Part shown: in pieces, positions 7,597 through 50,421 of the stretch | Layout of the letters: each line of letters begins with the position of its first letter | How positions within the stretch are numbered: position 1 is the first letter of the stretch | From: Naegleria gruberi | Taxonomy: Eukaryota | Assembly: GCA_000004985.1 (NCBI GenBank) | Contig: GG738855.1 | Length of the DNA stretch: 64,000 nt | Direction: 5' to 3' (one strand) | Translations under genes and position numbers: made by a program | Notes under the pieces: generated by a model | The model's input: only the letters and a program-made list of their open reading frames with translations | Told to the model about the DNA's origin: nothing | Databases searched by the model: none

Positions 7597-10500
7597 TTAT
7601 TTCTTTTTTCGTTTGAAAAATTGGAAAGCAGATGAGGAACCACTATCTGAAGAGGAGCCTCCCTTCTCAAGGGATTGAGTAAGCATTTCAATAATGTCGT
7701 CACAAGGAACATGAGACGATTTGGCAATATCTAATGGTGTTTTACCTTGCTTATTTTTCAAGTGTAAAACCTTGTACATTAATGTTTGTTTTGGTTCTAC
7801 TCTTGGACTCGATAGATTTGTAGTTGAAGCACTTCTACTATTTTCTCTTGGTGTTGAAAGGAGACCTCCTGAAGTTGGAGTGGTATTTTGATTTGGTGAT
7901 AAATTTGCAACAGAGCTAGCTGCAACACTAGGTCTCTTGTTCATTTGAACACCAACAATATTATACAGTGATAGGAGATATCTTACAGCAAATGTATTGC
8001 TGTCGCTACAAGCATATGCAAGACAAGTTTGATGTTTGTCATTATCTGGTTCCATCAACAACTCATTGAGGACTTCAATATTTTCTTGAGACTCTTCGTC
8101 ATATTTTTGTTTTTCTGCAAGCTTTTGTTCTGGTGTGAGCTCTACATTCTTTGGTGCTAATCTGAGGGCCGATCCTAATGTACTCTTTCTAGGTTGAAGT
8201 AGCTCATTAATAATCAATTGCATGGATTTCAAATCACCCTTAATTACACAATCGTGTAGAATATTTCTTCCATGATAATTTTGACTCTTCAAAACTTTAA
8301 TGAATTGCTCTCTAGAAATGTATGGCAAAATTGCCTCCAAAATTGGTTGTTTTCGTTTCAGTACACTGTTGTTGTTACTTTCTGTTGATGAATTGTTGGT
8401 TTGAGAATTATTCTTGCTTAGTTCAGGATTGAGTTTCTTAGCTCTCTCTGAAGGATCATTGTAAAACAAGTCACGAGCCTCTTGTTCACTCAAGCCATAG
8501 AATTTTTTAGCTGAGAGAATGAGTGTCTTGGTTGACCATCCCATTTGAGGAACAAGCAACTCCATGGCTTTGAACATAATATTCTTCTTCAATTGGAATT
8601 CATCTTGAAGGAAGTGACTAATGTGATTAGGGAATCTAGAACCATTTGTATTGGTTTTGGAATTGGCTGGAGAGGGTGATGAATTATTTTGAATTGGGCT
8701 TGATTTAATCTTGATAGAATCTTCAAGAAGGACACCTTGTTGATTACTGGTATAACCTCCTCCTGCCATTCCATTAATACCTGAAAGAGCAGCCAATGAG
8801 TCTGATCTCATTTTGAGTGCAGCAGGAAGCTTGAGAGGTTCTCTCTTCTTTCTTCTATCGTTTGTTAAGAGTTTGTTCTTATTTTCATAATTGACTTCAC
8901 CAGATTCACCAACAAACATTTCATCCAATTCTTGGAAAATATCAGCAGAAACGTCAGTATCACAACTAGAAACACTAGTTGTTGGTGATGGAGCTCTATT
9001 CGAAATTGGAGTATTATCACTATGTTCTGATGATTGTTTAACTGAGTCAACTCTAGGTGAGTCATATTTAGTTGATTCATTGATGGTATCCTCATCTTTT
9101 TCCTTGGACATTTCATGTTCGAGAAGGAATTCTTCAATCAAAAGTAAATCTTCATCTGGTACTTGAGATGATTCTCTCTTTGATTCTACCGATTTTTCAT
9201 CAGCAGCATTAATTACATCCTTTGTTGAGTTTTGTGAGGAGAGAGTTCTTGGTGAAGGTTGAGTTGGCACTTGTTGTACCTCAACTTCTCTCCCAACAAG
9301 ATTGAAGAGTGGAACACATCCTTTTTGATCCTTCTTTAGTAAAATAGCTCCCTTCTGAATGAGATAAACTATTCTATCCAATGGTAATTCGAAACAAGCA
9401 CGGTGCAACATGGTTTCACCTCCACGAATTGTAGTATCCAATGAAGCACCAAACAAAATGAGCATGTCACACACTGCAAAGCAACCTCTCTTCAATGCTA
9501 CATAAAATACATTGTATCCAAATTCATCATCCACTTGTTGAATAATCTTTTCCAATGCATTGTTATTATATGGAGATGAAGCTCCAGTAGCAGGAGATGA
9601 ACTAGTTGGTGAAGGAACATCTGCCTTATTCTTATTACCGAAAAAGCTCTTTCTTCCAGAGCCTCCTCCACTATTAGAATGTGGATTGGCCACAAGTTCT
9701 GATCCATTTCTAGCTCTTGAAACTCCTGTCTTGATTGTTGAACTCTTAATTTTCGTACACAAGAATGCACAGCTCTCAGTAGCATTAAAGAAGGAAGTAT
9801 AAAAGAGTGGAGTCATTTTCATGGCATCCGAAACAAATAAGAAATCAGGTCCACATTCATCAAATAACCATTCCATAATAACACTCTGATTGTACTTGGA
9901 TGCCAAGTGCATTAGTGTACACTTTTGAATAGAATTAAACTTGGTATTGAGTAAATATTTAGTCCACAATAATTTCAAAGATGGTTCCGTTGCAAATTTA
10001 AATTGTTTCCAAGTGTCGAGAACGTCCTCTTTCATGGAGGTAAATTCCTTCCTTGACATGACTTCAACTTCACGTGTAGGTGATCCAGTACTACTTGATG
10101 GACTGCCAAGAGATTGGAGGTCTGCGAATCTAGTACTGTTCCTGTTTAGTTTTATACTATTTCTATTAACACTGAGACTGTTACTGACAGTAAGAGTTGA
10201 TGATTCGTTACCACTCAATTTCATAGATCCAGTTGTAAAGAAGAAGAATCTAAAGTAGAGTAATTGTTTCAATCGGTAGAGAGAATGAATAGAAATGTGA
10301 TAGAGACCACTCAAGTCCATTAAAGCACTTCCCTTTGAAGATAATACCGAAGTTGTGGTATCTAAAATTATTGATTTGGCACTAGTTTCCGCAACTGTAT
10401 CTTTTTCAATCAATGGCTCAACTTGGCTGGTTTCGTTTGCTTTCGAATGCTTTCTGTTAACTTTCTTCTTCTTGGCAGATAAATGTTGTGATGATGGAAC

Positions 10501-11085
10501 AAAGCAATTCAACACCAACTCCTTCCAAGTATCTTCATCCAACGAAGAAGCATCTAAATTATCAAAGAATTGAGCCACTTTAACAATATCAATATCATTA
10601 TAAATTGTTGTACTATTTGTACTTCCGTGATAACTGTGAGTAGAACTACTTCTACTCAGAAAACCATTTCCACTCAACTCTCCCATATCATCGACCAGTT
10701 TACCAATTTGGTCTAAATTCATTGGAGTTATTGGAGATGAATAATTATTATTAACATTTTCAATGGATTGTCTGTTTGTTTGACTCGGTGTTATTGTTGT
10801 TGTTGATGGTGGCATCATTGGAGTAGTGTGATTATTATTATTTGATGAAGGAGTTGAAAATTGGTTATTATTATTTGGAGGAGAAGTGGTAGTTGAGTAG
10901 TGGTGGTTATCAGTTGTTGTTATTATTGAAGAAGTATTCGTCATTATGGAAGCCTTTCGAGGGGTAGAAGGAGAGTTAGCAGAGTTTAATGTAATGGTTT
11001 CATCGGTGGTGGTAGAAGTATTACTAATGGGCTGTTCAGGTTGAGTTATTCTGGATGATGATGTTGATGATTCTATTGAAGTCAT
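7597..11085 (-). CDS. Ser/Thr/Asn-rich ankyrin-repeat protein (1162 aa)
   Basis: Continuous ORF. Several ankyrin-like repeats: MHLASKYNQSVIMEWL, YNVFYVALKRGCFAVCDMLILFGASLD, GETMLHRACF, GRNILHDCVIKGDLKSMQLI, KQGKTPLDIAK. Extensive low complexity. Confidence 0.6.
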   Translation of the reverse strand: MTSIESSTSSSRITQPEQPISNTSTTTDETITLNSANSPSTPRKASIMTNTSSIITTTDNHHYSTTTSPPNNNNQFSTPSSNNNNHTTPMMPPSTTTITPSQTNRQSIENVNNNYSSPITPMNLDQIGKLVDDMGELSGNGFLSRSSSTHSYHGSTNSTTIYNDIDIVKVAQFFDNLDASSLDEDTWKELVLNCFVPSSQHLSAKKKKVNRKHSKANETSQVEPLIEKDTVAETSAKSIILDTTTSVLSSKGSALMDLSGLYHISIHSLYRLKQLLYFRFFFFTTGSMKLSGNESSTLTVSNSLSVNRNSIKLNRNSTRFADLQSLGSPSSSTGSPTREVEVMSRKEFTSMKEDVLDTWKQFKFATEPSLKLLWTKYLLNTKFNSIQKCTLMHLASKYNQSVIMEWLFDECGPDFLFVSDAMKMTPLFYTSFFNATESCAFLCTKIKSSTIKTGVSRARNGSELVANPHSNSGGGSGRKSFFGNKNKADVPSPTSSSPATGASSPYNNNALEKIIQQVDDEFGYNVFYVALKRGCFAVCDMLILFGASLDTTIRGGETMLHRACFELPLDRIVYLIQKGAILLKKDQKGCVPLFNLVGREVEVQQVPTQPSPRTLSSQNSTKDVINAADEKSVESKRESSQVPDEDLLLIEEFLLEHEMSKEKDEDTINESTKYDSPRVDSVKQSSEHSDNTPISNRAPSPTTSVSSCDTDVSADIFQELDEMFVGESGEVNYENKNKLLTNDRRKKREPLKLPAALKMRSDSLAALSGINGMAGGGYTSNQQGVLLEDSIKIKSSPIQNNSSPSPANSKTNTNGSRFPNHISHFLQDEFQLKKNIMFKAMELLVPQMGWSTKTLILSAKKFYGLSEQEARDLFYNDPSERAKKLNPELSKNNSQTNNSSTESNNNSVLKRKQPILEAILPYISREQFIKVLKSQNYHGRNILHDCVIKGDLKSMQLIINELLQPRKSTLGSALRLAPKNVELTPEQKLAEKQKYDEESQENIEVLNELLMEPDNDKHQTCLAYACSDSNTFAVRYLLSLYNIVGVQMNKRPSVAASSVANLSPNQNTTPTSGGLLSTPRENSRSASTTNLSSPRVEPKQTLMYKVLHLKNKQGKTPLDIAKSSHVPCDDIIEMLTQSLEKGGSSSDSGSSSAFQFFKRKKK

Positions 11086-11550
11086 CTCGTTTGTTTTATT
11101 TGAAATAATAATGTGTGTATATATATTCGAAGAAAGTATTACTCGAGGTGTTTTTGTAGAGCAAAATTTCTTCTTCTTGAAAGATAATATTATATCTTGT
11201 GATTTGGCAAACGGTTTTTGAATTTGATTTTTTTAACCGGAATGTTGGTGATGATTGTTAATTTGCGCCAAGTTTACTTGTGCTATTTTGTGTGGTGGAA
11301 AAATGAGAGTGCTGACACTAAACATGGACAAACCAAATGGGTTGTTTGATGCTAAGAAAGTTATTGAACTCTAACAATTAATTGGCTATTCGTTTCGTTT
11401 AGTTTATTTGATGGGATAACAAAATTTCTGCTTTTAAACAGTTTGAAAATCGATCGACTTAGACAATCATTAGTATTTAATGAGTTTCATGGATTTTCAT
11501 TCAAATATGTGTGGGGGTCATGGCGCAGTCGGTATTATTAATAGATTTTA

Positions 11551-11585
11551 GGGTAGGTAACGCTCTCAATCTACCTCAACGTAAC
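11551..11585 (+). repeat. R-repeat copy 1 (GGTAGG(G)TTGCGCTCTYAAG..CTCAACGTAAC family)
   Basis: Sequence gggtaggtaacgctctcaatctacctcaacgtaac. One of four direct copies inside the tRNA-Met insertion. Contains a ggtag/ctacc stem. Confidence 0.6.
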
Positions 11586-11615
11586 TTTAAATATAAACTT
11601 TATTTATTTTTAGAA

Positions 11616-11647
11616 AGGGTGGTTTGCGCTCTCAAGCAATGTTGCTC
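11616..11647 (+). repeat. R-repeat copy 2 (divergent, lacks CAACGTAAC tail)
   Basis: Sequence agggtggtttgcgctctcaagcaatgttgctc. Confidence 0.5.
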
Positions 11648-11685
11648 TTTAATGTACTGTTGCTATACTTTACATTGAATTGAAT

Positions 11686-12338
11686 TTATTGATTAATTAT
11701 TTCAACTTTTGAAGATTTCTTACTATTTTTCATACTATTAATAATTTTTAATTTTCTTTCTTTTCTTAATTCTTCATCATATTCAATTTCTTCTGTATAA
11801 AAACTAATATCACTATAATTTAAATTTGATTGTTTGGAATAATTTGGAAAATAATTATTTTCTGATTCATTAAATTCTTGAATTGTTTTTGATATTTTTT
11901 CAATTTCATTATCAATAAATTCATAAATTTGTTCATGTTTTTTAAAATTAATTTTCATTGATAAAATTAAATTTAAAAATAATAATCCTTTTCTAAAAAT
12001 AGATAAGGTAGGGTTGCGCTTTCATTAATACTCAACGTAACTTTTAAAATAAAAAACTTACCCAAAAATTTTACATTGAAAATTATCATCTTCAGATTTA
12101 AAATTAATTAAATTAATTTCATCTGATAAATTTGTTTCATCAATATGTTCTCTAAAATTTTCATTTGTTGTAAAAATTAAAAATGAATTTGAATTATGAA
12201 TTATATCTTCTCCTAATTCATCTGAAATTTCACTAATTCTAATTATTTGTAAATTTTTAATTATTGAATATAATCTTCCAAAATTAATACAAATTGGTGA
12301 ATGTTTACAATTTGATTTAATTATAAATGTATCATTAT
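11686..12338 (-). CDS. Spliced gene for a small Lys/Asn/Glu-rich protein nested between the tRNA-Met halves on the opposite strand (function unknown)
   Basis: Minus-strand exons complement(12062..12338) and complement(11686..11992), joined by a canonical intron GTAAGT...TTTTTAG (11993..12061). Splicing gives ...NFQCKIFGGKGLLFLNLILSMKINFKKHEQIYEF... in one frame. A possible mini first exon ATGACAG|GTAATT at complement(12582..12588) would place the tRNA 3' half and R4 inside intron 1 (12339..12581). That first exon is speculative. Confidence 0.45.
12006..12041 (+). repeat. R-repeat copy 3, lying inside an intron of the minus-strand nested gene
   Basis: Sequence aggtagggttgcgctttcattaatactcaacgtaac. 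It sits 13 nt from the GTAAGT donor (minus strand) of intron 11993..12061. Confidence 0.6.
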
Positions 12339-12356
12339 CTTTTAAATAATAAAATT

Positions 12357-12390
12357 AGGTAGGGTTGCGCTCTTAAGTATATCAACGTAG
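12357..12390 (+). repeat. R-repeat copy 4, abutting the tRNA-Met 3' half
   Basis: Sequence aggtagggttgcgctcttaagtatatcaacgtag. Its CAACGTAG tail runs directly into the tRNA D-stem GCGCG. Confidence 0.6.
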
Positions 12391-12443
12391 CGCGTAGGTC
12401 TCATAATCCTAAGGTCGTGAGTTCGATCCTCACTGACCCCAAC

Positions 12444-12449
12444 TTTTTT
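12444..12449 (+). terminator. Pol III oligo-T terminator after tRNA-Met 3' half
   Basis: A tttttt run starts 3 nt after discriminator A. Confidence 0.6.
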
Positions 12450-12988
12450 GCTAGTTGGATCTAACAAATTCTAGAATAGCACCATTTATTGAAACAGCTT
12501 GCCATACAAATTCTCTATCTCTTTTCAAGGCATTAATCAAAATTTTGTGGTTCAAGTTTGATCGATTCCTATGCTAATTACCTGTCATATCTAAATTGCT
12601 CTCGAACAAACCTCAATACTAACCAATCCTTGAAGGAGTTCAATGTCATTTCTCAATCTTTCAAGAAATAAACTGAATGGCTAATCCAGATGATTTCAGT
12701 CTTTCAATCACTTGATGCATATGTAAACAAGAACCAGTTCCGTCTTCTAAAGATTTATATCCATTAAAGCAGGTCTCAAGGCTGAATCACCTTAAAGGTG
12801 AAACAGTCCCTGAGCTTTAATACCCATTAGTATAATTACTTGTTCTCAATCTTGTTTTTATTAATTTGCAAGGTAACATCTTCAATTCATTAGATCCATA
12901 TGAATATGATCTTGGTCTAGAATCTTATTATTCTCTGAGAAGGATTTATGTTTTGCACGATTTTGCCTTAATTGCAACATACACACCA

Positions 12989-13071
12989 GCCCGCGTAGCA
13001 GAGTGGTCAAATGCGTAAGACTTAAGATCTTATCCCGAATGGGTTCGTGGGTTCGAACCCCACCGCTGGCA
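12989..13071 (+). tRNA. tRNA-Leu(UAA), type II with long variable arm
   Basis: Acceptor GCCCGCG/CGCTGGC with one C-T mismatch. D-stem GCA/TGC with loop GAGTGGTCAAA. Anticodon stem TAAGA/TCTTA and loop CTTAAGA (TAA). Variable arm CCCGAATGGG. T-arm GTGGG-TTCGAAC-CCCAC. Discriminator A. T-rich terminator follows. Confidence 0.7.
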
Positions 13072-13091
13072 TTTCCTTTTCTTTTTTGTTT
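13072..13091 (+). terminator. Pol III T-rich terminator after tRNA-Leu
   Basis: Sequence tttccttttcttttttgttt. Confidence 0.55.
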
Positions 13092-13351
13092 TCTGTGCAT
13101 TGGTGATGTCTTTGCAACTTGAATGGAAAGTTTTCTGAATTTGAATTATATTCTTATAGACCAGATGCTTTTCCAATAACTATAATAACTCATAAAAACA
13201 GATTCCTTCCTTGAAAAAGCTTTTAATTATATTAATTTTCCAAGAGAGAATTCAAAGAGCTATTTTCTACATGGCTTGTCCATTATGATTGATTCAAAAC
13301 TCATAAGGTCTTTGCCTTAATTATATTTTCTTTATTTATTACAACAACTGA

Positions 13352-15668: not shown

Positions 15669-17363
15669 TTATTTACGATTGATAAATTTTTGAATTGGAA
15701 TTGCACCACTATCACTACCTGTTGCGATACATTTAATAAATTCAGTTGGTTCCAACATTGTAATATCACAAAAGTATTTAAATCTATTTGCAACATATTG
15801 AGCTTCCTTATATCCCATAAATTGAGTGAGATAGTCAACTTGTTGATCGTCCTCTTGGTAGCTTTGTTCCAATTTCTTCAAAAATGACTGGACAAGTAGT
15901 GAATTAATAAAGTGTGCTTCCTCAAAAAGTGTTGGGAACGCCTTAGAAAAGGTATAGCCCTTCTTCCATACTGCATTTCTCTTTTGATTACTCGAGTAAA
16001 TGTCCATATAATATTGATCATAATCCAAAATTAGATATTTCTCACTGTAGTACAAGGTTCTGAATCCTACATTATTGGAAAATACTGGCGAAACTGACAA
16101 TCCAACCATGGCAAAATTATTCTTGGTGTTACCCAAATCATTAACCTTATTGGGTTGTTGGTTTCTGAATAATCTGAATTGATCCTTATGCAAGTGACCG
16201 TACAGAATGGTGGTAATCATTTCACTATATTTTGACACAAGTGCCAAGAATTGAGATTCATACATTGGCTTCCACAATGATTTGTTATCAAATGAATTTT
16301 GACTTGCTGGAATATGGGTTACAATGTAAACAGTTACATCTCTAATTGAGAGTTCACTTCTTGCCTTTAACAATTCCATTTCCATCCAGGCAAGTTGTCC
16401 TGATGGATCACTTGGTGGCTCAGCTCCATTTGTCATATTTGGATATCTATTCGCAGAGTATAAAAGTGAATTTAAAACAAGAATAACCAACTTGGATTCT
16501 CTTCCCTGAGAAGTCTTGACAATTTCATACTTGTAATATCCACCCTTCAAGAAGGTATTTCTTTGATAGTCCTCAGTGAGTCCAAACATTTTTCCCCATC
16601 CAACAGGTCCAGTCCACAAACTTTGATACCAAGTCAAAGCTTCATTTCCATGATCAGGATCTTCAATATATGGCAAATAATAATCAGGATACAAATCATT
16701 ATTTCCAATGCATGGCAATATTGGCAAATCATAAACATTTAACTGTTTTGCCAAGGTAGATTGCAACATTTTCGTCACATCCAATGTATTTTGCAAAACA
16801 AATGATCCATTAGGCAAGTGATGAGCATTGTAATCTCCATTCATGACAATAAAATCTGGTAAAATTCCATTATGCTCCCTAATAACTTGTGCAATTTGTG
16901 AAAATGTGCTTTCCACAAGTGTCTTTGGAGCATCACATCCATATCTTCCGTACATTGCATAATCAGTAAAATTCGTATCAATTCCCTCGAAAGAAGGTGA
17001 ACTAGAATTACGAATCAAAATTTTTCTCTTTTCCTCAATAAACAAAAAATCTTGGATTTTTTGTTTGGTATTTCTCAAATGATGAAACTCTTGTTGAACA
17101 CGTTCTGGCTGATTTTCCGTAACTACTTGTTGTGGTTTTCTACAAAAGTATTGATGATTAGGAATGGTTGGATCATAGAATGGATCATAGTGAATATCAG
17201 TCATCCACAAAAAGTAACCAAATGCCGATTGTTCTCCTCCTCGTGATTTTAATGATGAGAATTTATTAACTTGTTGTGTTGTTGAACATATTGTTGAAGA
17301 AAACAACAAAATGATGAAGAAGGAGAATAAATAATTGGGTGATGATGAAACATGTTGAGACAT
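15669..17363 (-). CDS. Acid-sphingomyelinase-like phosphodiesterase (calcineurin-like metallophosphoesterase), secreted
   Basis: 564-aa ORF. N-terminal signal peptide. Metallophosphatase motifs GDYNAHH, GNNDLYPDYY, GHLHKDQF. Overall similarity to the sphingomyelin phosphodiesterase family. Confidence 0.75.
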   Translation of the reverse strand: MSQHVSSSPNYLFSFFIILLFSSTICSTTQQVNKFSSLKSRGGEQSAFGYFLWMTDIHYDPFYDPTIPNHQYFCRKPQQVVTENQPERVQQEFHHLRNTKQKIQDFLFIEEKRKILIRNSSSPSFEGIDTNFTDYAMYGRYGCDAPKTLVESTFSQIAQVIREHNGILPDFIVMNGDYNAHHLPNGSFVLQNTLDVTKMLQSTLAKQLNVYDLPILPCIGNNDLYPDYYLPYIEDPDHGNEALTWYQSLWTGPVGWGKMFGLTEDYQRNTFLKGGYYKYEIVKTSQGRESKLVILVLNSLLYSANRYPNMTNGAEPPSDPSGQLAWMEMELLKARSELSIRDVTVYIVTHIPASQNSFDNKSLWKPMYESQFLALVSKYSEMITTILYGHLHKDQFRLFRNQQPNKVNDLGNTKNNFAMVGLSVSPVFSNNVGFRTLYYSEKYLILDYDQYYMDIYSSNQKRNAVWKKGYTFSKAFPTLFEEAHFINSLLVQSFLKKLEQSYQEDDQQVDYLTQFMGYKEAQYVANRFKYFCDITMLEPTEFIKCIATGSDSGAIPIQKFINRK

Positions 17364-17792
17364 TTTTTAATAATTTAAAATTTTCAAATAACTATTTTGA
17401 AAATCTACCAATATTTTCACATGGTGCATGTGCTGAGAATGTTAATATTGCTGATATTTGAATAATTTAATTTTATTAAGGAATTTGTAAAATTTTATTA
17501 AAAATAATTAAATATTCGTTTTTAAAAGAAAAGGAGAAAATTAAGAAATAAACCCTTAACTCCTTATCTTACACAACAAAACAATCAAAATAAACACTAT
17601 TAATATTGATAATACTAATAATATATCCAGATGAAAAAGAAGAACTTTTAATATCCATTTTTGAACCTTTCCAATCTTTATGAACAAAAACAGGCTCCAA
17701 AATAAATTTTTAGAAAACTAGTCGCACAAAATGCCGACCTTAAAATATCCAAATAAGCGCAGTAAATTTGTATAAAATAAAATCATAAAAAA

Positions 17793-20518: not shown

Positions 20519-22004
20519 TTACATGATAGTACAACAACCCTTTTTACCTCCACCTTCACAGTTGGCAAGCTTCTTTTCTAATTCCTCAATTCTAGCCTTC
20601 AGCTTCTTTTCGTTTTCTAAAAGCTCAGCAATCTTTTCTAACCTTGGATCTCCTCTAGAAACTCTGAGTTTGTTCTTAATTTGCTTGGCTCTATCAGAAA
20701 AGTAGAGAGTGCTCAAGGTCTCTTCACTATTTACATCTGCTGAAGAAACACATGATATCATTACACAAAATGCATTACCTCCAATGGAATCTTTCAATAA
20801 CCGAGTCAGGATTGAATTTCTGTATGGTACAAAGTTTGTTTTCTTCACAAGGGCATTAATGACATTACCCAAGTTGGATAAACTGAGATTGATATTTGCT
20901 CCTTCCTTCAACCGGTCTCCTGTAGCTTCTGTTGATGAGGCTCTTTCACTACCAGCAAGATCGACCAGTGAAATCTTGTTGGATCTCAAACTGAGACCAT
21001 CTTCATCACCTTTATCAACTTGATCCATGTAAATTGTCAGAACAGCGTGAGATCTTGAGGAGAATTGATTCATTTTGGTTTCGCCAACAGTTCTCCTACT
21101 AGCTCCTTCATCCAACAACTCGTTCAATTCCTCTTCACTTCCGATTGGCCTTTCAATGAGATTTGTAACAATAATTCCCTTCACCTTATCTTCTCTAACA
21201 TCATATTTTAACTTTTCAGTTCTATTGTGGAGAAGATCGTGAATATTTTCATTATAAATTTCAATATATGAAGCCTTAATGGTAATATCCGTTTTCTTTT
21301 GTTCCTTTCTCACATATTCAAAGAGCTCTCTCACAAAACGAGTCATTATTCCTTGTTGTTGTTGATCTCCTTTCACACCTTCCATTGTGTAGGTTTTTCC
21401 ACTTGATGTTTGACCGTATGCAAAGATACAAGCCTGAATTCAAATACAACCTTAATGAAAAGATTAGTCTTTAAAAACATACATTATATCCCAATATAAA
21501 TCTCTCCAAACACATTGCTCCTGTAGCTTTATAAATTTCAGTTTGAGCAGAAGTTTCATCAAAAACTCCATCAAAGAAAAATTCCTTATCTTCCTTATCC
21601 TTTCTCACCAGTTTGATTTTTCCTTCCGATTTGCCTATCGATAAGCAAGAACTACTCTTGAGAGATAATTCTCTCTGATTCAATGGTCTTGATCTCACCA
21701 CAACTTTAATATTAGTCTCGTCAACTGCTGACACCATCGTATTGATAGCTTCTAAAGCAACTTGTTGTGACTTTTCTTCCTCCTTCCTAGGCGAAACAAT
21801 AATGGTTGTGGTACCAGCACTCAATTTTGAATTATCCTTCTTTTCATTATTTGTTGATGAAATTGCCGATCCAGGAGCACTTCCTGCCTTCTTCTTCTCT
21901 ACTGCAGTGGTTGTAGCAGTAGCAGTGGAGGGACTCTTTGCTGCTTTAGGATTTTTGTTATTAGTATTAGCAGCAGGCGCATTTGTTCCTTTTGATGCAA
22001 CCAT
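20519..22004 (-). CDS. Kinesin motor protein (479 aa) with C-terminal CaaX-like motif CTIM
   Basis: Exons complement(21483..22004) and complement(20519..21433). Intron 21434..21482 is GTATGT...TTCAG. Motor motifs IKVVVRSRPLNQRE, P-loop GQTSSGKTYTM (spans the splice), switch I NQFSSRSHAVLTIY, switch II LVDLAGSER. Neck coiled coil follows. The protein ends ...GGGKKGCCTIM*. Confidence 0.8.
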
Positions 22005-22437: not shown

Positions 22438-24483
22438 ATGCACAACAATAAAACATTTGCCTGTTGTTGTGCAACTCTCTTGGTGGTGCTATTGAGCATT
22501 TTGATGATCTCATCGAGGGATGCTCTCGTATTTGGAAAGTTTATCATCAACAACAAAAAAGTAATGCCAACCATTACTTTTGAAGAGTTGAAAAAGTTAT
22601 TGCCAAAGGAAGATTTGAGCAAGTTGAAGGCCGAAGCCTTGATTAATACAGTATCTATTTATTGTTCATCATCAGCATCATCAACAAGTAAATATTATTT
22701 GAAGGAAACATCGACATCATTTACCTATACATTTGGTAATTATGATTTTGATAAAGCCATCGCTGTTGGTATTCTCTATGATGGTTATTCACCAGTTTTG
22801 AATAATCAAACTGATGCTGTTGATGGTTGGATGCGTTTGTGGGTCTCTACCTTCACCAATGTTAATAGAGAATCAAGTGGTGTTGATGCTTGTTATAAAT
22901 CGGAAATTAACAGACAATATGCTGCTGGTATGGTTGAAGGTTTATTGACACAACCACAAATTTACAACTTTTTCCAAAATCAATATAGTAATTGGAAGTT
23001 TGCAAAGAATAATGTGGATTTGAAGGCCAAGTTTGGTGACAATAATGAATGGGTCAAGTCACACGAAAGATTCAGGTCATCTCAACAACAAGGAAGAAAT
23101 AGTTCTAATTATTATTTCCCATCTGCATTGGTTGCCTACATGCAAGACAATTACAATTGGTTGAATCAACAAGTTGCTTCCAATCCAACATCTAATTATT
23201 GGAAACAAGTTGGTGGAACTTTGACTCAATTCAATGGTCTTGTTCAAGGTTATACTATTCGTGCCGAACAAGAAAAGAATGAAGTTTATGGAAGTTTGAA
23301 TTGGTTGGATTTATACTTTTTACAAGCTGCAGGTGATATGGAAACTTTGGAAACAGCTATTAAGGATCCATCAACCACTACCAGATCCAGAAATAATAAT
23401 AATAATAATGGAATTGTTCTCCCAGATGAAGAAACCATGACTGATTGTAGTGCTCTCATTAAGATTACACCAGATTGCCTTAACCTTTTCGCAGGACATA
23501 CAACATGGAGAGGATACAACATTATCAACAAGATGTACAAGGTCTATAGTTTATTGTTGAACAATGTTGCCTCAAAGACTGTATCATTTGCTTCATCTCC
23601 AAGCTTTTTGAGTAGTAAGGATGATTTCTATGTCACTGAAAATGGTCTCGTCACTATGGAAACAACCAATGATGTTTTCAATGAAACCCTCTTCCAATAT
23701 ATTACACCAAAGAGTGTCTTGTGTTGGGTTCGTTCCATTGTTGCCAACAGACTTGCTACAACCTCTAAGGAATGGGTCTACTATTTTGGACTCTACAATT
23801 CTGGTACTTATAACAATCAATGGATGGCTTTGGATTACAAGAACTTTAAACCTGGAGTATGTCATTTGCCAAAGGATTCTTTCTGGATTTTGGAACAAAT
23901 TCCTGGATCCGTCATGACTAGAGATGTTACTGATGTTTTGAATAAGCAATCCTTCTGGAGCTCTTTTAATATTCCTTATTTTGAACATATTTATAACATT
24001 TCAGGATATCAACAAGCCAAGCAAAAGTTTGGTAATGATTATGATTATAATTTGTGTTCTAGAGCTCTCATTTTCAAGAGAGAACAAGCCAAGATTGGAG
24101 CTGATAGATCTAAACCAGTTGATTATAAGGATTTCGGTAGAGTTTTACAATTCAATGAATGGAAGACTGATCCATACAGTTTAGGCGATCCTAGCAAAGC
24201 TGTCTCATCTAGATATGATTTGAGAGATCTAAGATTCGCTGCCTTTGGTGGTATTGATACTAAGGTTACTGACTATGTCAAGAATTTGAAACACACTTCC
24301 ATGTGGGGTATTTGTGGTCCTACCCATCAAGACGAATCTCAAACTCCACCATTCACTTGGACTGATAAATTCAAGGCCACCCATTTGGGCCAACCTCAAA
24401 CTTATAATTTCGATTGGGTTGATTTGGAAGATGTTGACTCCTTCTATTCCTCTCTTTCACAAAAATCTAAAAGAAGAAATTAA
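22438..24483 (+). CDS. Phospholipase B-like (PLBD/LAMA-like Ntn-hydrolase) secreted protein
   Basis: Signal peptide present. Ntn autocleavage/nucleophile motif DCSALIKI. Motif YNNQWMALDYKNFKPG (PLB-like NQWM.DYK). Length 681 aa. Confidence 0.7.
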   Translation: MHNNKTFACCCATLLVVLLSILMISSRDALVFGKFIINNKKVMPTITFEELKKLLPKEDLSKLKAEALINTVSIYCSSSASSTSKYYLKETSTSFTYTFGNYDFDKAIAVGILYDGYSPVLNNQTDAVDGWMRLWVSTFTNVNRESSGVDACYKSEINRQYAAGMVEGLLTQPQIYNFFQNQYSNWKFAKNNVDLKAKFGDNNEWVKSHERFRSSQQQGRNSSNYYFPSALVAYMQDNYNWLNQQVASNPTSNYWKQVGGTLTQFNGLVQGYTIRAEQEKNEVYGSLNWLDLYFLQAAGDMETLETAIKDPSTTTRSRNNNNNNGIVLPDEETMTDCSALIKITPDCLNLFAGHTTWRGYNIINKMYKVYSLLLNNVASKTVSFASSPSFLSSKDDFYVTENGLVTMETTNDVFNETLFQYITPKSVLCWVRSIVANRLATTSKEWVYYFGLYNSGTYNNQWMALDYKNFKPGVCHLPKDSFWILEQIPGSVMTRDVTDVLNKQSFWSSFNIPYFEHIYNISGYQQAKQKFGNDYDYNLCSRALIFKREQAKIGADRSKPVDYKDFGRVLQFNEWKTDPYSLGDPSKAVSSRYDLRDLRFAAFGGIDTKVTDYVKNLKHTSMWGICGPTHQDESQTPPFTWTDKFKATHLGQPQTYNFDWVDLEDVDSFYSSLSQKSKRRN

Positions 24484-25945: not shown

Positions 25946-28900
25946 TTATTGTTGTAACTGGTTTCGGATTGTGTTTGCTTCATAAGAAGAGATAATACTT
26001 CTTCCTCTAGTTTTCCTAGTTACTGCTTCCTCTTTTTGTTCGATACTTTGTGCAGAGGTCCTCATAAATTCATTCATTTCTTCATCGGTTGGCATTGGTT
26101 TCGTGTGGTGTTCATCATTCAGCAAGTAACATTTTGTCATTCCCTTTCCTTTCACTTCGATATTCCTCTCCTCAAAAACAAATCCCAAATCATGAACTCT
26201 CTCATAGGTTGATCTGGTTATCTGTATTCTTCCTGAAAGAGATGTTGATTCCATTCGAGAAGCTGTGTTAACTGCATCACCCCACAAATCGTAGGCAAAC
26301 TTTTTGGTTCCAATCACACCAGCCACAACTGACCCAGTATTGATACCAATGAATGTATCACCTCTCTTCAATCGTTGGGCAACTGATTCAGGTAAGATAT
26401 TCTTCAATAGATTTTCAGAGTGTTTCTTCTCGTCTTCCAACAGAGCTGCTGCCTTTTTTTCTGAGGTGATATCCTTTATGGTTAAAATAATTAGAACGCC
26501 CTTTCCTGATACCTTAACTGTGAAAAGATTGAGTTTTGTTGGGAATTTTGTTCCATTTTTTCTTAAACATTCGGATTCTAATGAATCATGACCTCCACTA
26601 TCATTTCCTGAAAACTCATTTACGAGGGCACTCACTGATTTTCTGACAGATTCTTTTGTTTTCCCTTCCTCGAATATGGAATAGAAGGAGGTTCCAAGGA
26701 TTTCCTGTGTTGCAAGACCAAGCATATTAAGGGCTGGTGTGTTGATTAGTTCCACTTCTCCTTCTGTATTGATGATTATTGAACCATCAACACTTGAATT
26801 AATTACAGAGCATACGCCCGAATAAGATCCTTGTCCTTCATCTGATTGCCTTTCTGATTTTAGACTAAACTTATTAGACAATGGATCTGAGAATAGATTG
26901 TAGAGTGCTAAATTCTTCAATCTCTCATTGTTTTCGAGAGTTTCAATAGGAATATAATTCAATAGCATCTTTGTGTAGTAATATTGATTAGAATTCGACC
27001 CCATAATTGAGAGAATCAATTTACAAAAAATTAAAGAAATACAAGTACCCAAAATAGTAAATAACAATACAGAAACATAACTGGATTTCTGAAGAAACTC
27101 TTGCAAATTCTTGCATAAATGATGCTAGTTTTAGAGAGAGAGGATATGACCTAGCTTGATTAGTGTAATGTTCAAAAAACAAGGTACTAATTTCTTGCAT
27201 TGTAAAGTTGGTTGACTGGTATTTGTAGAATTTCTTAGTTAACTCAGACACTTTGGATGAAGTTGAAACAAATTCAGACATCATATATTCGACACCAATA
27301 CAATAACTATAGTAATTTTGCACATTAAATGTAAAATTATTTGCTTGCAAATATTCAGTACAATTATCTGAAACTCCAAATTTCAATGTCTTGTCCATCG
27401 ATGGATAGATACCAACAAGAGGTGTATCGTATGCTAAATATTATGGAAATTATCAGTAATTAAATTGAGGTTGAAACTTACGAATATTAATATTACCAAA
27501 TATCAGATCCGTATAATTAGACGAAAGTCCATCAATTTGATCCAAAAGAATGTGGCTCAGCTCGTCAAATGTAGAACTAGTTCTTAAAAACGGATGGGCA
27601 ATGTTAGTAGCCCCAAAGTTGTTGGTATTTCCTAAACCATAAACGGATAAAAGTTCTGATAAGTAGTATCCACAAATTTGTACAAAATAAATTACTCTAG
27701 CTCCAGCTTGAATATTATAATAAGTTTTGAGTGCGCTTACTGCATTTCCATTAATTTCATTATAAAACATTCCCAAACAAAATGGGTTGACTAAAACCAA
27801 AACCATGACTGAAACTATGAGGGTGTACTTGGCTTTGGTAATTTTCGAAATCAAACTGGAATCAAGTGAAGAGTCAATAGATGATTGCTTGGAAAGTGAC
27901 TGATATATTCTAGCTATCTTGTCTCTTGGAGTCTCCTTCTTGATTGTTTTTACCAATCTTTTAAGGTAGTACTGTCTGTAAAGAACAGTAATAATGAAGC
28001 ACATAGCGATTGGCAACAATGCTAAACTACCAGCTACGAGATAGATTTGAAAATACGATAATAATGAAGTTGTGGATAATTGGCTAGAATCTACATAATT
28101 CGAACAAAATGCAGACAGAACATCAAATGCATTATCTCTGTTACTCCAATAATACATGAAACTATAGTCCTGTATAGAATTCATGAAAGTACCATTAATA
28201 ACAGACCTAACGAGCTGATCTCTTGTTGATTGAGAAATTGTTGTGGAGTTGGACAATAACAATAAATCATTGAGAGGAAAACTTTCTTGGATTCTTTCTA
28301 AGAAGCTTTTCAGATTATTGGTAAATTCATTGACTGATATTCTTCTTATTTGCACTGTACCTGAATAGTATCCATTGTCTCTAATCGTAGGAATTAATGC
28401 TGTGTGTTCTCCTGCACCGTAACTATTTATGAAATTAGCAAAAGAGCTCAATAAACTTACGCTGTATAGATAGGAGCATCAAAAACACCTTTTTGTGCAA
28501 GTAATATCAAATCGTGTAGAACATTCTTGTCATTTTCCATTCTATGAAGATAGTTTTGGATATATTCCTTTAGTAAGAGTTAGAGAATGTTATATTGGAG
28601 GGATACTACTTACCTGAAAGGTTTCTGTTGGGAGACTATCATATTCTGTCTTCCAATCACTTCCATAATTAATATAATAATTAATTGCACTTTGCATACT
28701 TCTGACATTTCTTATTACAGACATTCCAACTTCCTCAGTCAAACAAGCAGAATTCAAGTTTACAACACCAACTCTAATCGAAGATCCAATGTAAATAGCA
28801 AAAGAAGCGCCTCCTAAACCAACACTGAAAATGATCACAAAAATTAAAATAAACAGACTGTTTCTCAAACTTTCGTTTGGTTTGTTCCTAATTCCATTCC

Positions 28901-49216: not shown

Positions 49217-50421
49217 TTCTGGCGTTCCCAACTCATCGTCCATTCAGTAACACCTTTTTAGTTTTACCATTATGGCAACTACTGGTTATTTTTGTTACTG
49301 AATGTTTTTGTTGGATTTTTAGCAAAAGGTGTATCACCTTGTGCCCAGCATGTGTGAAGAGACTTCACAACTGCTTCATCAATGTACTTATTATTCAGAC
49401 GGGTAGTAGAACAGATTCTTTCTATTGCTTGCATTTGTTATGGTTCTGTCAATAAAATAAATTTTTTTTTACGGAAAGCCAGCTGTCTGATCTGACTTTT
49501 CGACTTTAAAATTTTTTCCAATTTTTTGCTAGAAAAATTTTCAAGTCGAAATTCCATAGTTTTTTCCCTAATTGATTTCTAAGGCTATTCTCTTTATGAA
49601 TATTTAATATTTGAAGGAGAAAATTGGTAAATATATTATATATTAATAATATCATAATTTGGTTTTCAAACTTCGAATGAAATTGAGAACACACCTGTAG
49701 AACATGCTATCTATCACTAACTTTATGTTTGCAGCCTTGGTGGTGATGGAGAAAATATTATTTCTGTAGTTTTGGTATTTATTTTATAGAGAATTATTTT
49801 TATCATACTGAACTTTCTCAGATTATACTCTTGTATGTCTAAAATCATATATATCAGTTTTACATATCCATAATATGTACATCATAAGTTATTAATTTAT
49901 TCTCTAAAATTGGGGATTTTCAAAAATAAAAAATAAAAAATAAAAAAAATTAATAACTCCTTTATTATTCGATAATTAATGGAAACCATTGATTTTACAT
50001 TCTGATATGAAACAATATCTTCGGAATTATGTCCCTGATTATGAAATTGCAATAAAAACATCATCTATTTATCAAAAACTAATTCTGTATATATTGTTGG
50101 AAAGAGGGTGCTGATACCAAATATCAAAACTTTTTCTTAATAATGGTGATTGTCTATTCAGATAGATGTAGATTATGTTTTAGTTGAATGCTGTTGTTGA
50201 TTACCAGTTTGGACAACAATCTAAATGCGGTTCAGTAACACCATATTAGAAGTTGGGAACACCAGGAAATTTATCTAGGCGAAAAAAATCTGCCTGAAAT
50301 GGTTATGCCAAATTTATCTTTACGGTCATAACTACCATTTAAAGCACTGTACACCAGCAAGAATAAAAAACACCATCAAGAAATTTATTAAAAAAATGGT
50401 TTAGTTGGTTGTTCCTTAATC

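What the first reader, a model, noticed from the sequence alone, without database searches (positions are those of the whole stretch)
11551..12390. Family of four ~35-bp direct repeats (GGTAGGGTTGCGCTCTYAAG...CTCAACGTAAC) confined to the tRNA-Met insert
Copies lie at 11551-11585, 11616-11647, 12006-12041 and 12357-12390, all in the same orientation. They are GC-rich islands in AT-rich DNA. Copy 1 contains a ggtag/ctacc stem. Copy 4 runs without break into the tRNA D-stem (CAACGTAG|CGCG) and all copies begin with GGTAG, like the tRNA D-loop end GGTAGCGCG. This hints that they may derive from or mimic that tRNA segment. On the opposite strand one copy sits 13 nt inside a spliced intron and another probably in a second intron. 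They could be binding sites, small-RNA genes, or terminal or internal repeats of a mobile element.
Basis: seen in the sequence. Interest (0 to 1): 0.6.

Follow-up and report, generated by a model that had tools for sequence, protein, structure and literature searches.

The report
Repeated intron-like units inside tRNA insert
Four copies of a short GC-rich sequence lie in a very AT-rich, foreign-looking 855-bp piece of DNA that splits one methionine tRNA gene of the amoeba Naegleria gruberi. They mark the non-coding parts, one of them a canonical intron, of a gene fragment on the other strand, they do not derive from the tRNA, and their function is unproven.

Summary
The repeats are real. Four same-orientation copies lie at the stated coordinates, with none elsewhere in the 64 kb and none expected by chance. 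They are 42-53% GC in an insert whose remainder is 15% GC.

The window is Naegleria gruberi nuclear DNA. An 855-bp insert (11535-12389) splits an otherwise perfect tRNA-Met(CAT) gene in the D-loop, with GTA at both junctions.

On the opposite strand the insert carries two real coding segments. Their GC3 is 0-4%, against 20-43% for host ORFs. A canonical 69-nt GTAAGT...TAG intron joins them in frame.

Each repeat has two boxes and is the core of a roughly 50-76-nt non-coding unit of that gene fragment:
- the intact intron;
- a truncated upstream intron;
- two tandem units behind the stop codon.

Resemblance to the tRNA is at chance level, and there is no conserved RNA fold or Rfam hit. The encoded protein has no homologues. 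No further copies were found in viral or metagenome collections, and the N. gruberi genome itself could not be searched.

Best reading (about 0.4): an intron-resident, introner-like repeat carried passively in a foreign gene fragment that disrupted one redundant tRNA gene. Rivals are recombinase or transposase binding sites, and organelle- or virus-type intergenic motifs. This is a moderate curiosity.

The parts
11514..11534 (+). 5' part of tRNA-Met(CAT): acceptor 5' strand, D-stem 5' strand and D-loop up to GGTA
   Evidence: Joined to 12390-12441 it gives a perfect 73-nt cloverleaf tRNA-Met(cat) in ARAGORN. ARAGORN and Rfam do not call it in the uninterrupted window.
11535..12389 (.). 855-bp insert, about 20% GC; its boundaries are ambiguous by the 3 nt GTA present at both junctions (11532-11534 and 12387-12389)
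   Evidence: Sequence. GC is 15% outside the repeats, against 32-33% in the flanks. No similarity to the rest of the window. 18 runs of four or more T on the tRNA strand, the first at 11546.
11551..11585 (+). Repeat copy 1 (box A GGTAGGTAACGCTCTCAAT, box B CTCAACGTAAC)
11616..11658 (+). Repeat copy 2 (box A GGGTGGTTTGCGCTCTCAAG; degenerate box B CTTTAATGTAC after a 7-nt insertion)
12006..12041 (+). Repeat copy 3 (box A GGTAGGGTTGCGCTTTCATT, box B CTCAACGTAAC)
12357..12389 (+). Repeat copy 4 (box A GGTAGGGTTGCGCTCTTAAG, box B TCAACGTA), cut off by the junction with the tRNA 3' part
12339..12389 (-). Unit u4: copy 4 plus an A/T tract ending in AG (12340-12339); read as the 3' part of an intron whose 5' part was lost at the insertion boundary
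   Evidence: Alignment with the intact intron u3. The open frame of exon A starts right after it.
12062..12338 (-). Exon A (open frame 12354-12064, 97 codons, no in-frame ATG/GTG/TTG start)
   Evidence: Third codon positions are 0% G+C, first positions 25%. It has the lowest GC3 of all open frames of 60 codons or more in the window. The ORF listing finds no start.
11993..12061 (-). Unit u3: 69-nt intron GTAAGT...TTTTTAG holding copy 3; phase 2, joins exon A to exon B in frame
   Evidence: It is the only GTAAGT on this strand of the insert. The in-frame translation runs through. 0 of 20000 shuffles give such a split gene. Its signals and length resemble host introns.
11686..11992 (-). Exon B with stop codon TAA (11688-11686); 101 codons
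   Evidence: GC3 is 4%.
11598..11673 (-). Unit u2: copy 2 between GTAAAG and AAAG, starting 13 nt (12 intervening bases) behind the stop codon
   Evidence: and the sequence.
11535..11603 (-). Unit u1: copy 1, 69 nt, degenerate 5' end ATAAAG; its 3' end coincides with the left junction of the insert
   Evidence: and the sequence.
12390..12441 (+). 3' part of tRNA-Met(CAT): D-stem 3' strand, anticodon arm, T arm, acceptor 3' strand
   Evidence: Rfam gives a partial tRNA hit at 12386-12435, 25.6 bits, below the gathering score.

Best explanation
Shown:
- One copy of the N. gruberi tRNA-Met(CAT) gene was split between D-loop nucleotides 21 and 22 by a single 855-bp piece of DNA. The composition of that DNA is foreign to this genome.
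- On the strand opposite to the tRNA, the piece carries the 3' part of a protein-coding gene. It has two exons with the codon-position signature of real coding sequence. A canonical 69-nt GT-AG intron joins them in frame.
- The four repeats are the conserved GC-rich cores of the non-coding units of that gene fragment. Each core has two boxes, GGTAGGGTTGCGCTCTYAAG and CTCAACGTAAC on the tRNA strand.
- The units are the intact intron (u3), a truncated unit just upstream of the first retained exon (u4), and two tandem units behind the stop codon (u2, u1).

Inferred:
- The units are copies of one short intron-forming or intron-resident sequence, introner-like, that multiplied within the source gene or source genome. 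They came into the tRNA gene passively with the fragment.
- Their GC-rich core survived in a background of about 15% GC because it is young, or because it is needed for the unit's own propagation or recognition.
- The fragment entered at a break in the tRNA gene by end joining or recombination across the 3-nt GTA homology.
- The tRNA copy is dead. RNA polymerase III would stop at the T runs that begin 12 nt into the insert.
For: - Organism: a window ORF is 100% identical to an N. gruberi protein.
- tRNA: the two halves join into a perfect tRNA-Met.
- Composition: the insert is about 20% GC, or 15% outside the repeats, against 32-33% in the flanks.
- Coding signature: GC3 is 0% in exon A and 4% in exon B, while GC1 is 25%. 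These are the two lowest GC3 values of all open frames in the window. Host ORFs of 250 codons or more have GC3 0.20-0.43, giving binomial p from 1e-6 to 1e-16.
- Intron: the only GTAAGT on that strand sits exactly at the end of exon A. Splicing to TTTTTAG keeps the frame. No shuffle out of 20000 gives such a split gene. Host introns in the window look alike: 48-58 nt, GTAAGT or GTATGT, AT-rich.
- Exon A has no start codon. This fits an internal exon preceded by a truncated intron.
- Unit alignment on the minus strand runs from GTAAGT, GTAAAG or ATAAAG through both boxes to an A/T tract ending in AG.
- The repeats are not tRNA-like and not structured.
Against: - There are only four copies, all in one 855-bp locus. 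None is in the other 63 kb of host DNA, including its introns. None was found in Naegleria fowleri or N. lovaniensis loci, in viral contigs or in metagenomes. Dispersal, the defining property of introners, is therefore unshown.
- Units u2 and u1 lie behind the stop codon and in tandem, so they are not introns of the coding region.
- No TSD or TIR surrounds the units.
- A GC3 near zero is more typical of organelles, endosymbionts or some viruses than of nuclear genes with spliceosomal introns.
- The core shares 12 nt with a conserved SSU rRNA segment, which the introner reading does not explain.
- Splicing has not been observed.
Confidence: 0.4

Rival explanations
1. The repeats are cis-acting protein-binding sites (recombinase arm sites, iteron-like sites or subterminal transposase sites) of a small non-autonomous integrative element that targets the tRNA D-loop. 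A circular form would recombine with the tRNA across the shared GTA. In the circle, copies 4, 1 and 2 would form a cluster of three direct sites next to the crossover.
For: - GTA lies at both junctions.
- The insert begins 16 nt before copy 1 and ends exactly at box B of copy 4, so both ends lie in repeat units.
- The two-box, same-orientation architecture has a variable spacer.
- The GC-rich cores are kept in a background of 15% GC.
- Box B of the internal copies reads GTTAC|GTTGAG on the minus strand, and the break in copy 4 lies at the same TAC.
- tRNA genes are classical integration targets (established knowledge).
Against: - There is no recombinase or transposase: no Pfam, PHROG, PDB or database homologue of the ORFs.
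- There are no TIRs under any of the four possible boundary placements (reading).
- Three nucleotides of homology is what end joining gives by chance.
- Copy 3 sits inside an intron in the middle of the gene, not at an end.
- Only one insertion is available, so site specificity is untested.
Confidence: 0.2
2. The insert is a captured piece of an organelle-like, endosymbiont or virus-type compact AT-rich genome, analogous to a NUMT. In that genome the repeats are intergenic punctuation, processing or promoter-terminator motifs, or mobile GC clusters, that flank two separate small ORFs. The GT-AG 'intron' is then a coincidence.
For: - GC3 of 0-4% and 15% GC outside the repeats are typical of organelles and endosymbionts.
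- Every ORF is flanked by a repeat, in the order copy 4 - ORF A - copy 3 - ORF B - copies 2 and 1.
- ORF B has its own ATG, 48 nt after copy 3.
- The minus-strand core GAGCGCAACCCT is identical to the conserved bacterial and organellar SSU rRNA segment, E. coli 16S 1103-1115, in sense orientation. Units u4 and u3 align to 16S better than shuffles do (p about 0.01-0.02).
- The 3-nt microhomology is typical of end-joining capture.
Against: - ORF A has no ATG, GTG or TTG start.
- GTAAGT lies exactly on the stop of ORF A, and an in-phase AG opens into the frame of ORF B. My analytic estimate puts that at under 1% by chance (for the counts).
- The ORFs match no protein, including the Naegleria mitochondrial proteins that the searched databases should hold.
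- There is no Rfam SSU rRNA hit at E up to 5.
- The rRNA match was found after the fact and is marginal.
- Four copies of one rRNA-like segment are not expected in an rRNA gene.
Confidence: 0.2
3. The repeats are functionless leftovers of local duplications inside the inserted segment.
For: All copies lie within 855 bp, and none was found anywhere else.
Against: - The segments between the copies are not similar to each other, at either the DNA or the protein level.
- The cores stay at 42-53% GC and are well conserved, while the surrounding sequence is 15% GC. Under the strong AT pressure shown by GC3 of about 0, this calls for constraint or very recent origin.
Confidence: 0.1
4. The repeats derive from or mimic the tRNA D-arm, or are small-RNA genes on the tRNA strand.
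For: - Three copies start with GGTAG, as does the D-loop end GGTAGCGCG.
- Copy 4 abuts the D-stem.
- The plus strand can form a weak stem between GTTGCG and CGTAAC using G-U pairs.
Against: - Alignment to tRNA-Met and tRNA-Leu is at chance level.
- There is no Rfam match.
- Each copy folds differently, and none clearly beats shuffles.
- The consensus stem is -1.9 kcal/mol with no compensatory change, and the minus strand has no consensus structure.
- No bulge-helix-bulge forms at the junctions.
Confidence: 0.04

Closest known systems
Introners / introner-like elements (intron-generating repeats of Micromonas, Aureococcus, fungi, dinoflagellates; candidate introners in mirusviruses, PMC12768974)
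   Same: - A short sequence is shared by different introns of the same genome or gene.
- The unit spans an entire short GT-AG intron (u3).
- A second copy lies in the neighbouring, truncated intron.
   Different: - Only four copies are known, all in one locus, and two are behind the stop codon in tandem.
- No TSD or TIR was found.
- No dispersed family has been shown.
- The unit has an unusually GC-rich core in very AT-rich DNA.
Transposons that insert inside small-RNA genes (Dada DNA transposons, PMC8869645; site-specific non-LTR retrotransposons of tRNA, snRNA and rRNA genes)
   Same: The insertion lies inside a multicopy tRNA gene, where losing one copy is harmless.
   Different: - There is no DDE transposase, no TIR and no 6-7-bp TSD, so it is not Dada.
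- There is no reverse transcriptase or endonuclease and no poly(A) tail.
- An intron is retained.
- Only one insertion has been seen.
Integrative elements and Cryptons that recombine with a target across a short common core (tyrosine recombinase type; tRNA-gene attB sites in prokaryotes)
   Same: - A short identical sequence (GTA) lies at both junctions.
- Direct repeats lie close to both ends.
- The target is a tRNA gene.
   Different: - No recombinase gene is present.
- The tRNA is not restored.
- The core is only 3 nt.
- The host is a eukaryote, and the cargo is a gene fragment containing an intron.
NUMT-type captured DNA, and mobile GC clusters or double-hairpin elements of AT-rich mitochondrial genomes
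   Same: - An extremely AT-rich segment carries short GC-rich repeated islands between ORFs.
- The junction shows microhomology.
   Different: - The two ORFs are joined in frame by a canonical spliceosomal-type intron.
- There is no match to known mitochondrial proteins.
- The copies are not palindromic hairpins.
Non-canonical tRNA introns (bulge-helix-bulge introns in D-loops of archaea and Cyanidioschyzon)
   Same: The interruption lies in the D-loop of an otherwise perfect tRNA.
   Different: - It is 855 nt long.
- It has 18 T runs that would terminate Pol III.
- No BHB motif forms at the junctions.
- It carries an antisense protein-coding fragment.

Membership tests
Introners / introner-like elements | The repeat coincides with a complete spliceosomal intron (own or co-opted splice sites) | tested here: inconclusive
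   - Met for u3: GTAAGT...TAG, in frame.
- Plausible for the truncated u4.
- Not met for u2 and u1, which lie behind the stop codon.
- Splicing itself has not been observed.
Introners / introner-like elements | Many similar copies in introns of unrelated genes across the genome | tested here: not met
   - No copy exists outside the insert in the 64-kb window.
- None was found in 66 kb of N. fowleri and N. lovaniensis DNA, in viral contigs or in metagenomes.
- The full N. gruberi genome and the unknown source genome could not be searched.
Introners / introner-like elements | TSD and/or TIR of the transposon type (in DNA-transposon introners) | tested here: not met
   No inverted termini or duplicated flanks appear around the units in alignments A1 and A2.
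Dada and other cut-and-paste transposons / MITEs | Terminal inverted repeats and a TSD of fixed length (Dada 6-7 bp) | tested here: not met
   - Only GTA (3 nt) is shared by the junctions.
- The ends TTATTAAT... and ...ATCAACGTA are not inverted repeats under any of the 4 boundary placements (the inverted-repeat list).
Dada and other cut-and-paste transposons / MITEs | Transposase (autonomous) or dispersed copies (MITE) | tested here: not met
   There are no Pfam or homologue hits and no other copies.
Non-LTR retrotransposon / SINE insertion | RT/EN coding capacity or a tRNA-derived Pol III head; A-rich or simple-repeat 3' tail; no introns | tested here: not met
   - There is no RT or EN domain.
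- The minus-strand 3' end is ...TTAATAA, with no tail.
- An intron is retained.
- The repeats are not tRNA-like.
Site-specific integrative element (tyrosine/serine recombinase, Crypton-like) | Recombinase gene | tested here: not met
   Searches find no such domain. A non-autonomous element cannot be excluded.
Site-specific integrative element (tyrosine/serine recombinase, Crypton-like) | Identical core at both junctions, and repeated use of the same target site | tested here: inconclusive
   A GTA core is present, but it is only 3 nt. A single insertion is available, so site reuse is not testable here.
tRNA intron (canonical or BHB) | Position 37/38, or a bulge-helix-bulge at the junctions; transcribable by Pol III | tested here: not met
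   - The position is 21/22, in the D-loop.
- The predicted folds show no BHB.
- There are 18 T runs of 4 or more on the tRNA strand, the first 12 nt into the insert.
Known structured RNA families (Rfam 15) | Covariance-model match | tested here: not met
   - At gathering threshold, only tRNA-Leu is found in the window.
- In the E-value mode, only the tRNA-Met 3' part and noise appear.
NUMT / organelle-derived insert | Sequence identity to the organelle genome | not testable with these tools
   - N. gruberi mtDNA is not available to the DNA tools.
- Indirectly, the ORFs hit no protein in databases that should include Naegleria mitochondrial proteins.
- The 12-nt identity to a conserved SSU rRNA segment is marginal.

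The most novel reading that the evidence does not exclude
The insert is a fragment or miniature derivative of a still undescribed, extremely AT-rich nuclear episome or virus of Naegleria. That episome integrates into tRNA gene D-loops, and its genes are colonised by a roughly 69-nt introner with a GC-rich two-box core. This would be a direct example of a foreign mobile genome ferrying intron-generating elements into a host nucleus.
Probability: 0.08. Interest if true: 0.7.

Novelty: new member of a known kind. Interest (0 to 1): 0.35.

Why it matters
If the units prove to be a dispersed intron family, this locus would give Naegleria, and Heterolobosea generally, an introner-like element. It would also show one arriving inside compositionally foreign DNA, which bears on the idea that viruses or episomes spread introners between microbial eukaryotes.

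If the repeats instead prove to be recombination sites, the locus would reveal a mobile element in a free-living excavate that targets the interior of tRNA genes.

As it stands, the secure result is modest. One redundant tRNA-Met gene copy was inactivated, probably recently, by a foreign gene fragment, and the conspicuous repeats belong to that fragment's non-coding parts rather than to the tRNA.

Tried and rejected
1. tRNA mimicry. Smith-Waterman alignment of each copy against tRNA-Met and tRNA-Leu on both strands, compared with 500 shuffles, gives no signal.
2. Structured or small RNA. Single folds, consensus folds on both strands and Rfam in both modes give nothing.
3. BHB-type tRNA intron or split tRNA. 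There is no BHB. The two flanking repeats are direct, not complementary. T runs are abundant.
4. Internal duplication of the coding parts. Exon A against exon B gives E 8.3. The DNA segments between the copies are not alike.
5. Protein identity.
   - Pfam, PHROGs and PDB give nothing credible.
   - The 5.8-billion-protein search gives nothing.
   - A full HMMER scan with exon A gives one hit, P0122, a protein with 13 BRCA2 repeats. Its E-value is inflated by 13 repeated weak matches. A single HSP scores 31 bits, which is not significant for that database. I rejected it.
   - AlphaFold on exon A alone gives pLDDT 44, which is unusable.
6. Other copies.
   - Matches to the 14-mer in viral contigs do not extend and are chance.
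   - The two-box pattern gives 0 hits in viral contigs and 0 in metagenomes.
   - A relaxed pattern gives 17 metagenome hits, all without the upstream GGTAGG and not AT-rich, so they are chance.
   - tblastn-type scans of viral contigs with both exons give nothing.
7. Getting the N. gruberi genome, other alleles or orthologous loci.
   - Exact-protein look-ups fail for all N. gruberi proteins tried.
   - The phospholipase B neighbourhoods of N. fowleri and N. lovaniensis are not syntenic with this window.
8. Other AT-rich islands in the window, 17251-17650 and 49751-50050, are ordinary intergenic DNA.
9. Literature. No paper in the library describes interrupted tRNA genes, introners or tRNA-targeting elements in Naegleria.
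10. Other element types. From reading the ends, I considered and rejected LTR/TRIM (no TG..CA, no PBS), Helitron (no TC..CTRR, no A|T target), Tc1/mariner and PIF/CACTA (no TIR).
Full report
**Observation**

Reading 10800-13200 and running the repeat finder (family D1) confirm four copies in one orientation at about 11551-11585, 11616-11647, 12006-12041 and 12357-12389.
- The 20-nt consensus with up to three mismatches occurs only there in the 64-kb window: 3 hits against 0.00 expected in shuffles.
- A two-box pattern, GGTAGG..CGCTYTYAWK..TCAACGTA, hits copies 1, 3 and 4 and nothing else.
- The copies are 42-53% GC. The rest of the insert is 15.3% GC, and the host flanks are 32-33%.
- The alignment shows two conserved boxes: box A, GGTAGGGTTGCGCTCTYAAG, and box B, CTCAACGTAAC. 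Copy 2 starts GGGTGG and has a degenerate box B behind a 7-nt insertion.

**Context**

A window ORF (22438-24483) is 100% identical to a Naegleria gruberi protein, and its next relatives are N. lovaniensis and N. fowleri at 65-66%. The window is N. gruberi nuclear DNA.

ARAGORN and Rfam see only tRNA-Leu(TAA) at 12989-13071. Joining 11514-11534 to 12390-12441, however, gives a perfect 73-nt tRNA-Met(CAT).

The gene is interrupted in the D-loop, after GGTA, by 855 nt (11535-12389). GTA is present at both junctions, so the boundary is ambiguous by 3 nt.

On the tRNA strand the insert has 18 runs of four or more T, the first only 12 nt in. The junctions form no bulge-helix-bulge. This gene copy is therefore almost certainly not expressed as a tRNA. 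That conclusion is an inference from the known behaviour of RNA polymerase III.

**What the insert carries**

On the minus strand there are two long open frames, 12354-12064 and 11991-11689.

Evidence that they are coding, and foreign to this genome:
- G+C is 25% at first codon positions, 17-22% at second positions, and 0% and 4% at third positions.
- These are the two lowest GC3 values of all open frames of 60 codons or more in the window, and the next lowest is 16.5%.
- Host ORFs of 250 codons or more have GC3 0.20-0.43, mean 0.31.
- The binomial probabilities of the observed GC3 are 1e-6 to 1e-16.

Evidence for the intron:
- The only GTAAGT on this strand of the insert sits exactly at the end of the first frame.
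- Splicing from it to the TTTTTAG at 11993 removes 69 nt and joins the frames in phase...KIFG|KGLLF....
- None of 20000 shuffles of the insert gives two frames of 90 codons or more linked in this way.
- Likely host introns in the window are of the same kind: 48-58 nt, GTAAGT or GTATGT, about 24% GC.

The first exon has no ATG, GTG or TTG start. It is preceded by copy 4 and an AG, so it looks like an internal exon whose upstream partner was lost. The insert is then the 3' part of a gene.

The 199-aa product has no credible match:
- Pfam, PHROG and PDB searches give nothing credible.
- The large protein database holds no homologue.
- The single hit of the exhaustive HMMER scan is a 13-fold BRCA2-repeat protein. 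Its score is the sum of 13 weak matches, so it is not credible.

**What the repeats are within that anatomy**

Aligned on the minus strand, the similarity runs from GTAAGT (u3), GTAAAG (u2) or ATAAAG (u1), through box B (GTTACGTTGAG) and box A (TGAGAGCGCAACCCTACC), to an A/T tract that ends in AG.
- u3 (12061-11993) is the intact intron.
- u4 (12389-12339) is cut at box B by the right junction and ends in the AG in front of exon A.
- u2 (11673-11598) and u1 (11603-11535) lie in tandem, beginning 13 nt (12 intervening bases) behind the stop codon.
- u1 ends at the left junction.

The repeats are therefore the cores of the non-coding units of the inserted gene fragment.

- Similarity to tRNA-Met or tRNA-Leu is at chance level.
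- Single-copy folds differ from copy to copy and do not clearly beat shuffles.
- The consensus structure is a 6-bp stem of -1.9 kcal/mol without compensatory changes on the plus strand, and there is none on the minus strand.
- Rfam has nothing.
- The segments between the copies are unrelated to each other at both DNA and protein level. The insert is therefore not a tandem array of a larger unit.

**Search for relatives**
- Viral contigs and metagenomes hold no extended or two-box matches. The few pattern hits are chance.
- Both exons find nothing in viral contigs.
- The three Naegleria loci I could fetch lack the motif. They are also not syntenic with this window.
- The N. gruberi assembly could not be reached through any tool.

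**Mechanism**

I take three things as shown:
- the split tRNA;
- the foreign composition of the insert;
- the coding nature of the two frames and the canonical intron between them.

I take two things as inferred.
- The four units are copies of one short intron-forming or intron-resident sequence that multiplied in the source gene or genome. They were carried into the tRNA gene passively (confidence about 0.4).
- The fragment entered by end joining or recombination across GTA.

Rival readings:
1. The cores are binding or recombination sites of a small integrative element that targets the tRNA D-loop. Both ends of the insert lie in repeat units, and a circular form would place copies 4, 1 and 2 in a cluster at the crossover. 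No recombinase, TIR or second insertion is known (about 0.2).
2. The insert is a captured piece of an organelle-, symbiont- or virus-type genome, and the repeats are its intergenic motifs.
   - For: GC3 is near zero, and every ORF is flanked by a repeat. An after-the-fact finding is that the minus-strand core GAGCGCAACCCT equals the conserved SSU rRNA segment, E. coli 16S 1103-1115. Units u4 and u3 align to 16S with p about 0.01-0.02.
   - Against: the exactly placed GTAAGT with an in-phase acceptor (under 1% by my analytic estimate), the missing start codon of ORF A, and the absence of any protein or Rfam match (about 0.2).
3. The repeats are neutral local duplicates (about 0.1).
4. The repeats are tRNA mimics or small RNAs (about 0.04).

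**Comparison with known systems**

The closest analogues are listed here.
- Introner-like elements share the same idea, but dispersal is unshown and there are no TSDs or TIRs.
- Transposons that insert inside small-RNA genes, such as Dada (PMC8869645), share the kind of target, but none of their defining features is met.
- Crypton-like or prokaryote-type integrative elements share the short core at both junctions, but there is no recombinase.
- NUMT-type capture with mitochondrial GC clusters shares the composition, but the insert has a spliceosomal-type intron.
- BHB tRNA introns share only the D-loop position.

No paper in the searchable library reports interrupted tRNA genes, introners or tRNA-targeting elements in Naegleria.

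**Verdict**

This is a real and statistically solid repeat family, and its tRNA-related interpretation is wrong. The family belongs to a foreign, intron-containing gene fragment that knocked out one tRNA-Met gene copy.

Its function, whether introner-like unit, protein-binding site or intergenic motif, cannot be settled without the rest of the genome and RNA data. Interest is moderate to low (0.35). The most novel reading still open, a foreign episome or virus carrying introners into tRNA genes, has a probability of about 0.08.

Noticed in passing
window 12006-12026, 12357-12377 and 11616-11636 (minus-strand core GAGCGCAACCCT): The core of the repeat is identical over 12 nt to the universally conserved bacterial and organellar SSU rRNA segment, E. 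coli 16S 1103-1115 (the 1100R/1114F primer site). Units u4 and u3 align to E. coli 16S in sense orientation better than shuffles do (p about 0.01-0.02). The end of exon A, AAATTTTTGGGTAAGT, also resembles the 16S sequence AAATGTTGGGTTAAGT just upstream. I found this after the fact through a literature string search. It is marginal.
   Followed up: partly
window 12989-13071: An intact tRNA-Leu(TAA) gene lies 548 bp downstream of the split tRNA-Met, on the same strand. The two form a small tRNA gene pair, of which only one member is interrupted.
   Followed up: partly
window 12064-12354 (minus) versus protein P0122: Exon A residues 33-91 align at 32-35% identity to each of 13 tandem BRCA2 (BRC) repeats of a 1318-aa metagenomic protein. 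The database E-value of 2.6e-12 comes from summing 13 weak matches. A single match scores about 31 bits, and the FxxA motif reads FTTN in the query. I judged the hit spurious.
   Followed up: yes
window 21434-21482, 27434-27481, 33565-33622 (all minus strand): These are likely host introns. They are very short (48-58 nt) and about 24% GC. They begin GTAAGT or GTATGT, end YAG, and carry a CTAAT/CTGAT/TTAAC-like branch site. None contains the repeat core.
   Followed up: partly
window 22438-24483 versus loci L121-L123: The phospholipase B gene has different neighbours in N. gruberi than in N. lovaniensis and N. fowleri: a ZIP transporter downstream in N. gruberi, against a thioredoxin/OST3 protein and a CLC channel in the other two. 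There is no local synteny between these species.
   Followed up: no
window 17251-17650 and 49751-50050: These are the only other stretches below 22% GC in 300-bp windows. They are ordinary AT-rich intergenic DNA with no ORF signature and no repeat copies.
   Followed up: yes
window 7597-11085 and 22438-24483 (tool behaviour): The N. gruberi proteins P0121 and P0001 are listed by the homology search as seen on a 613-kb contig. The exact-sequence contig look-up nevertheless reports them as not on record.
   Followed up: yes
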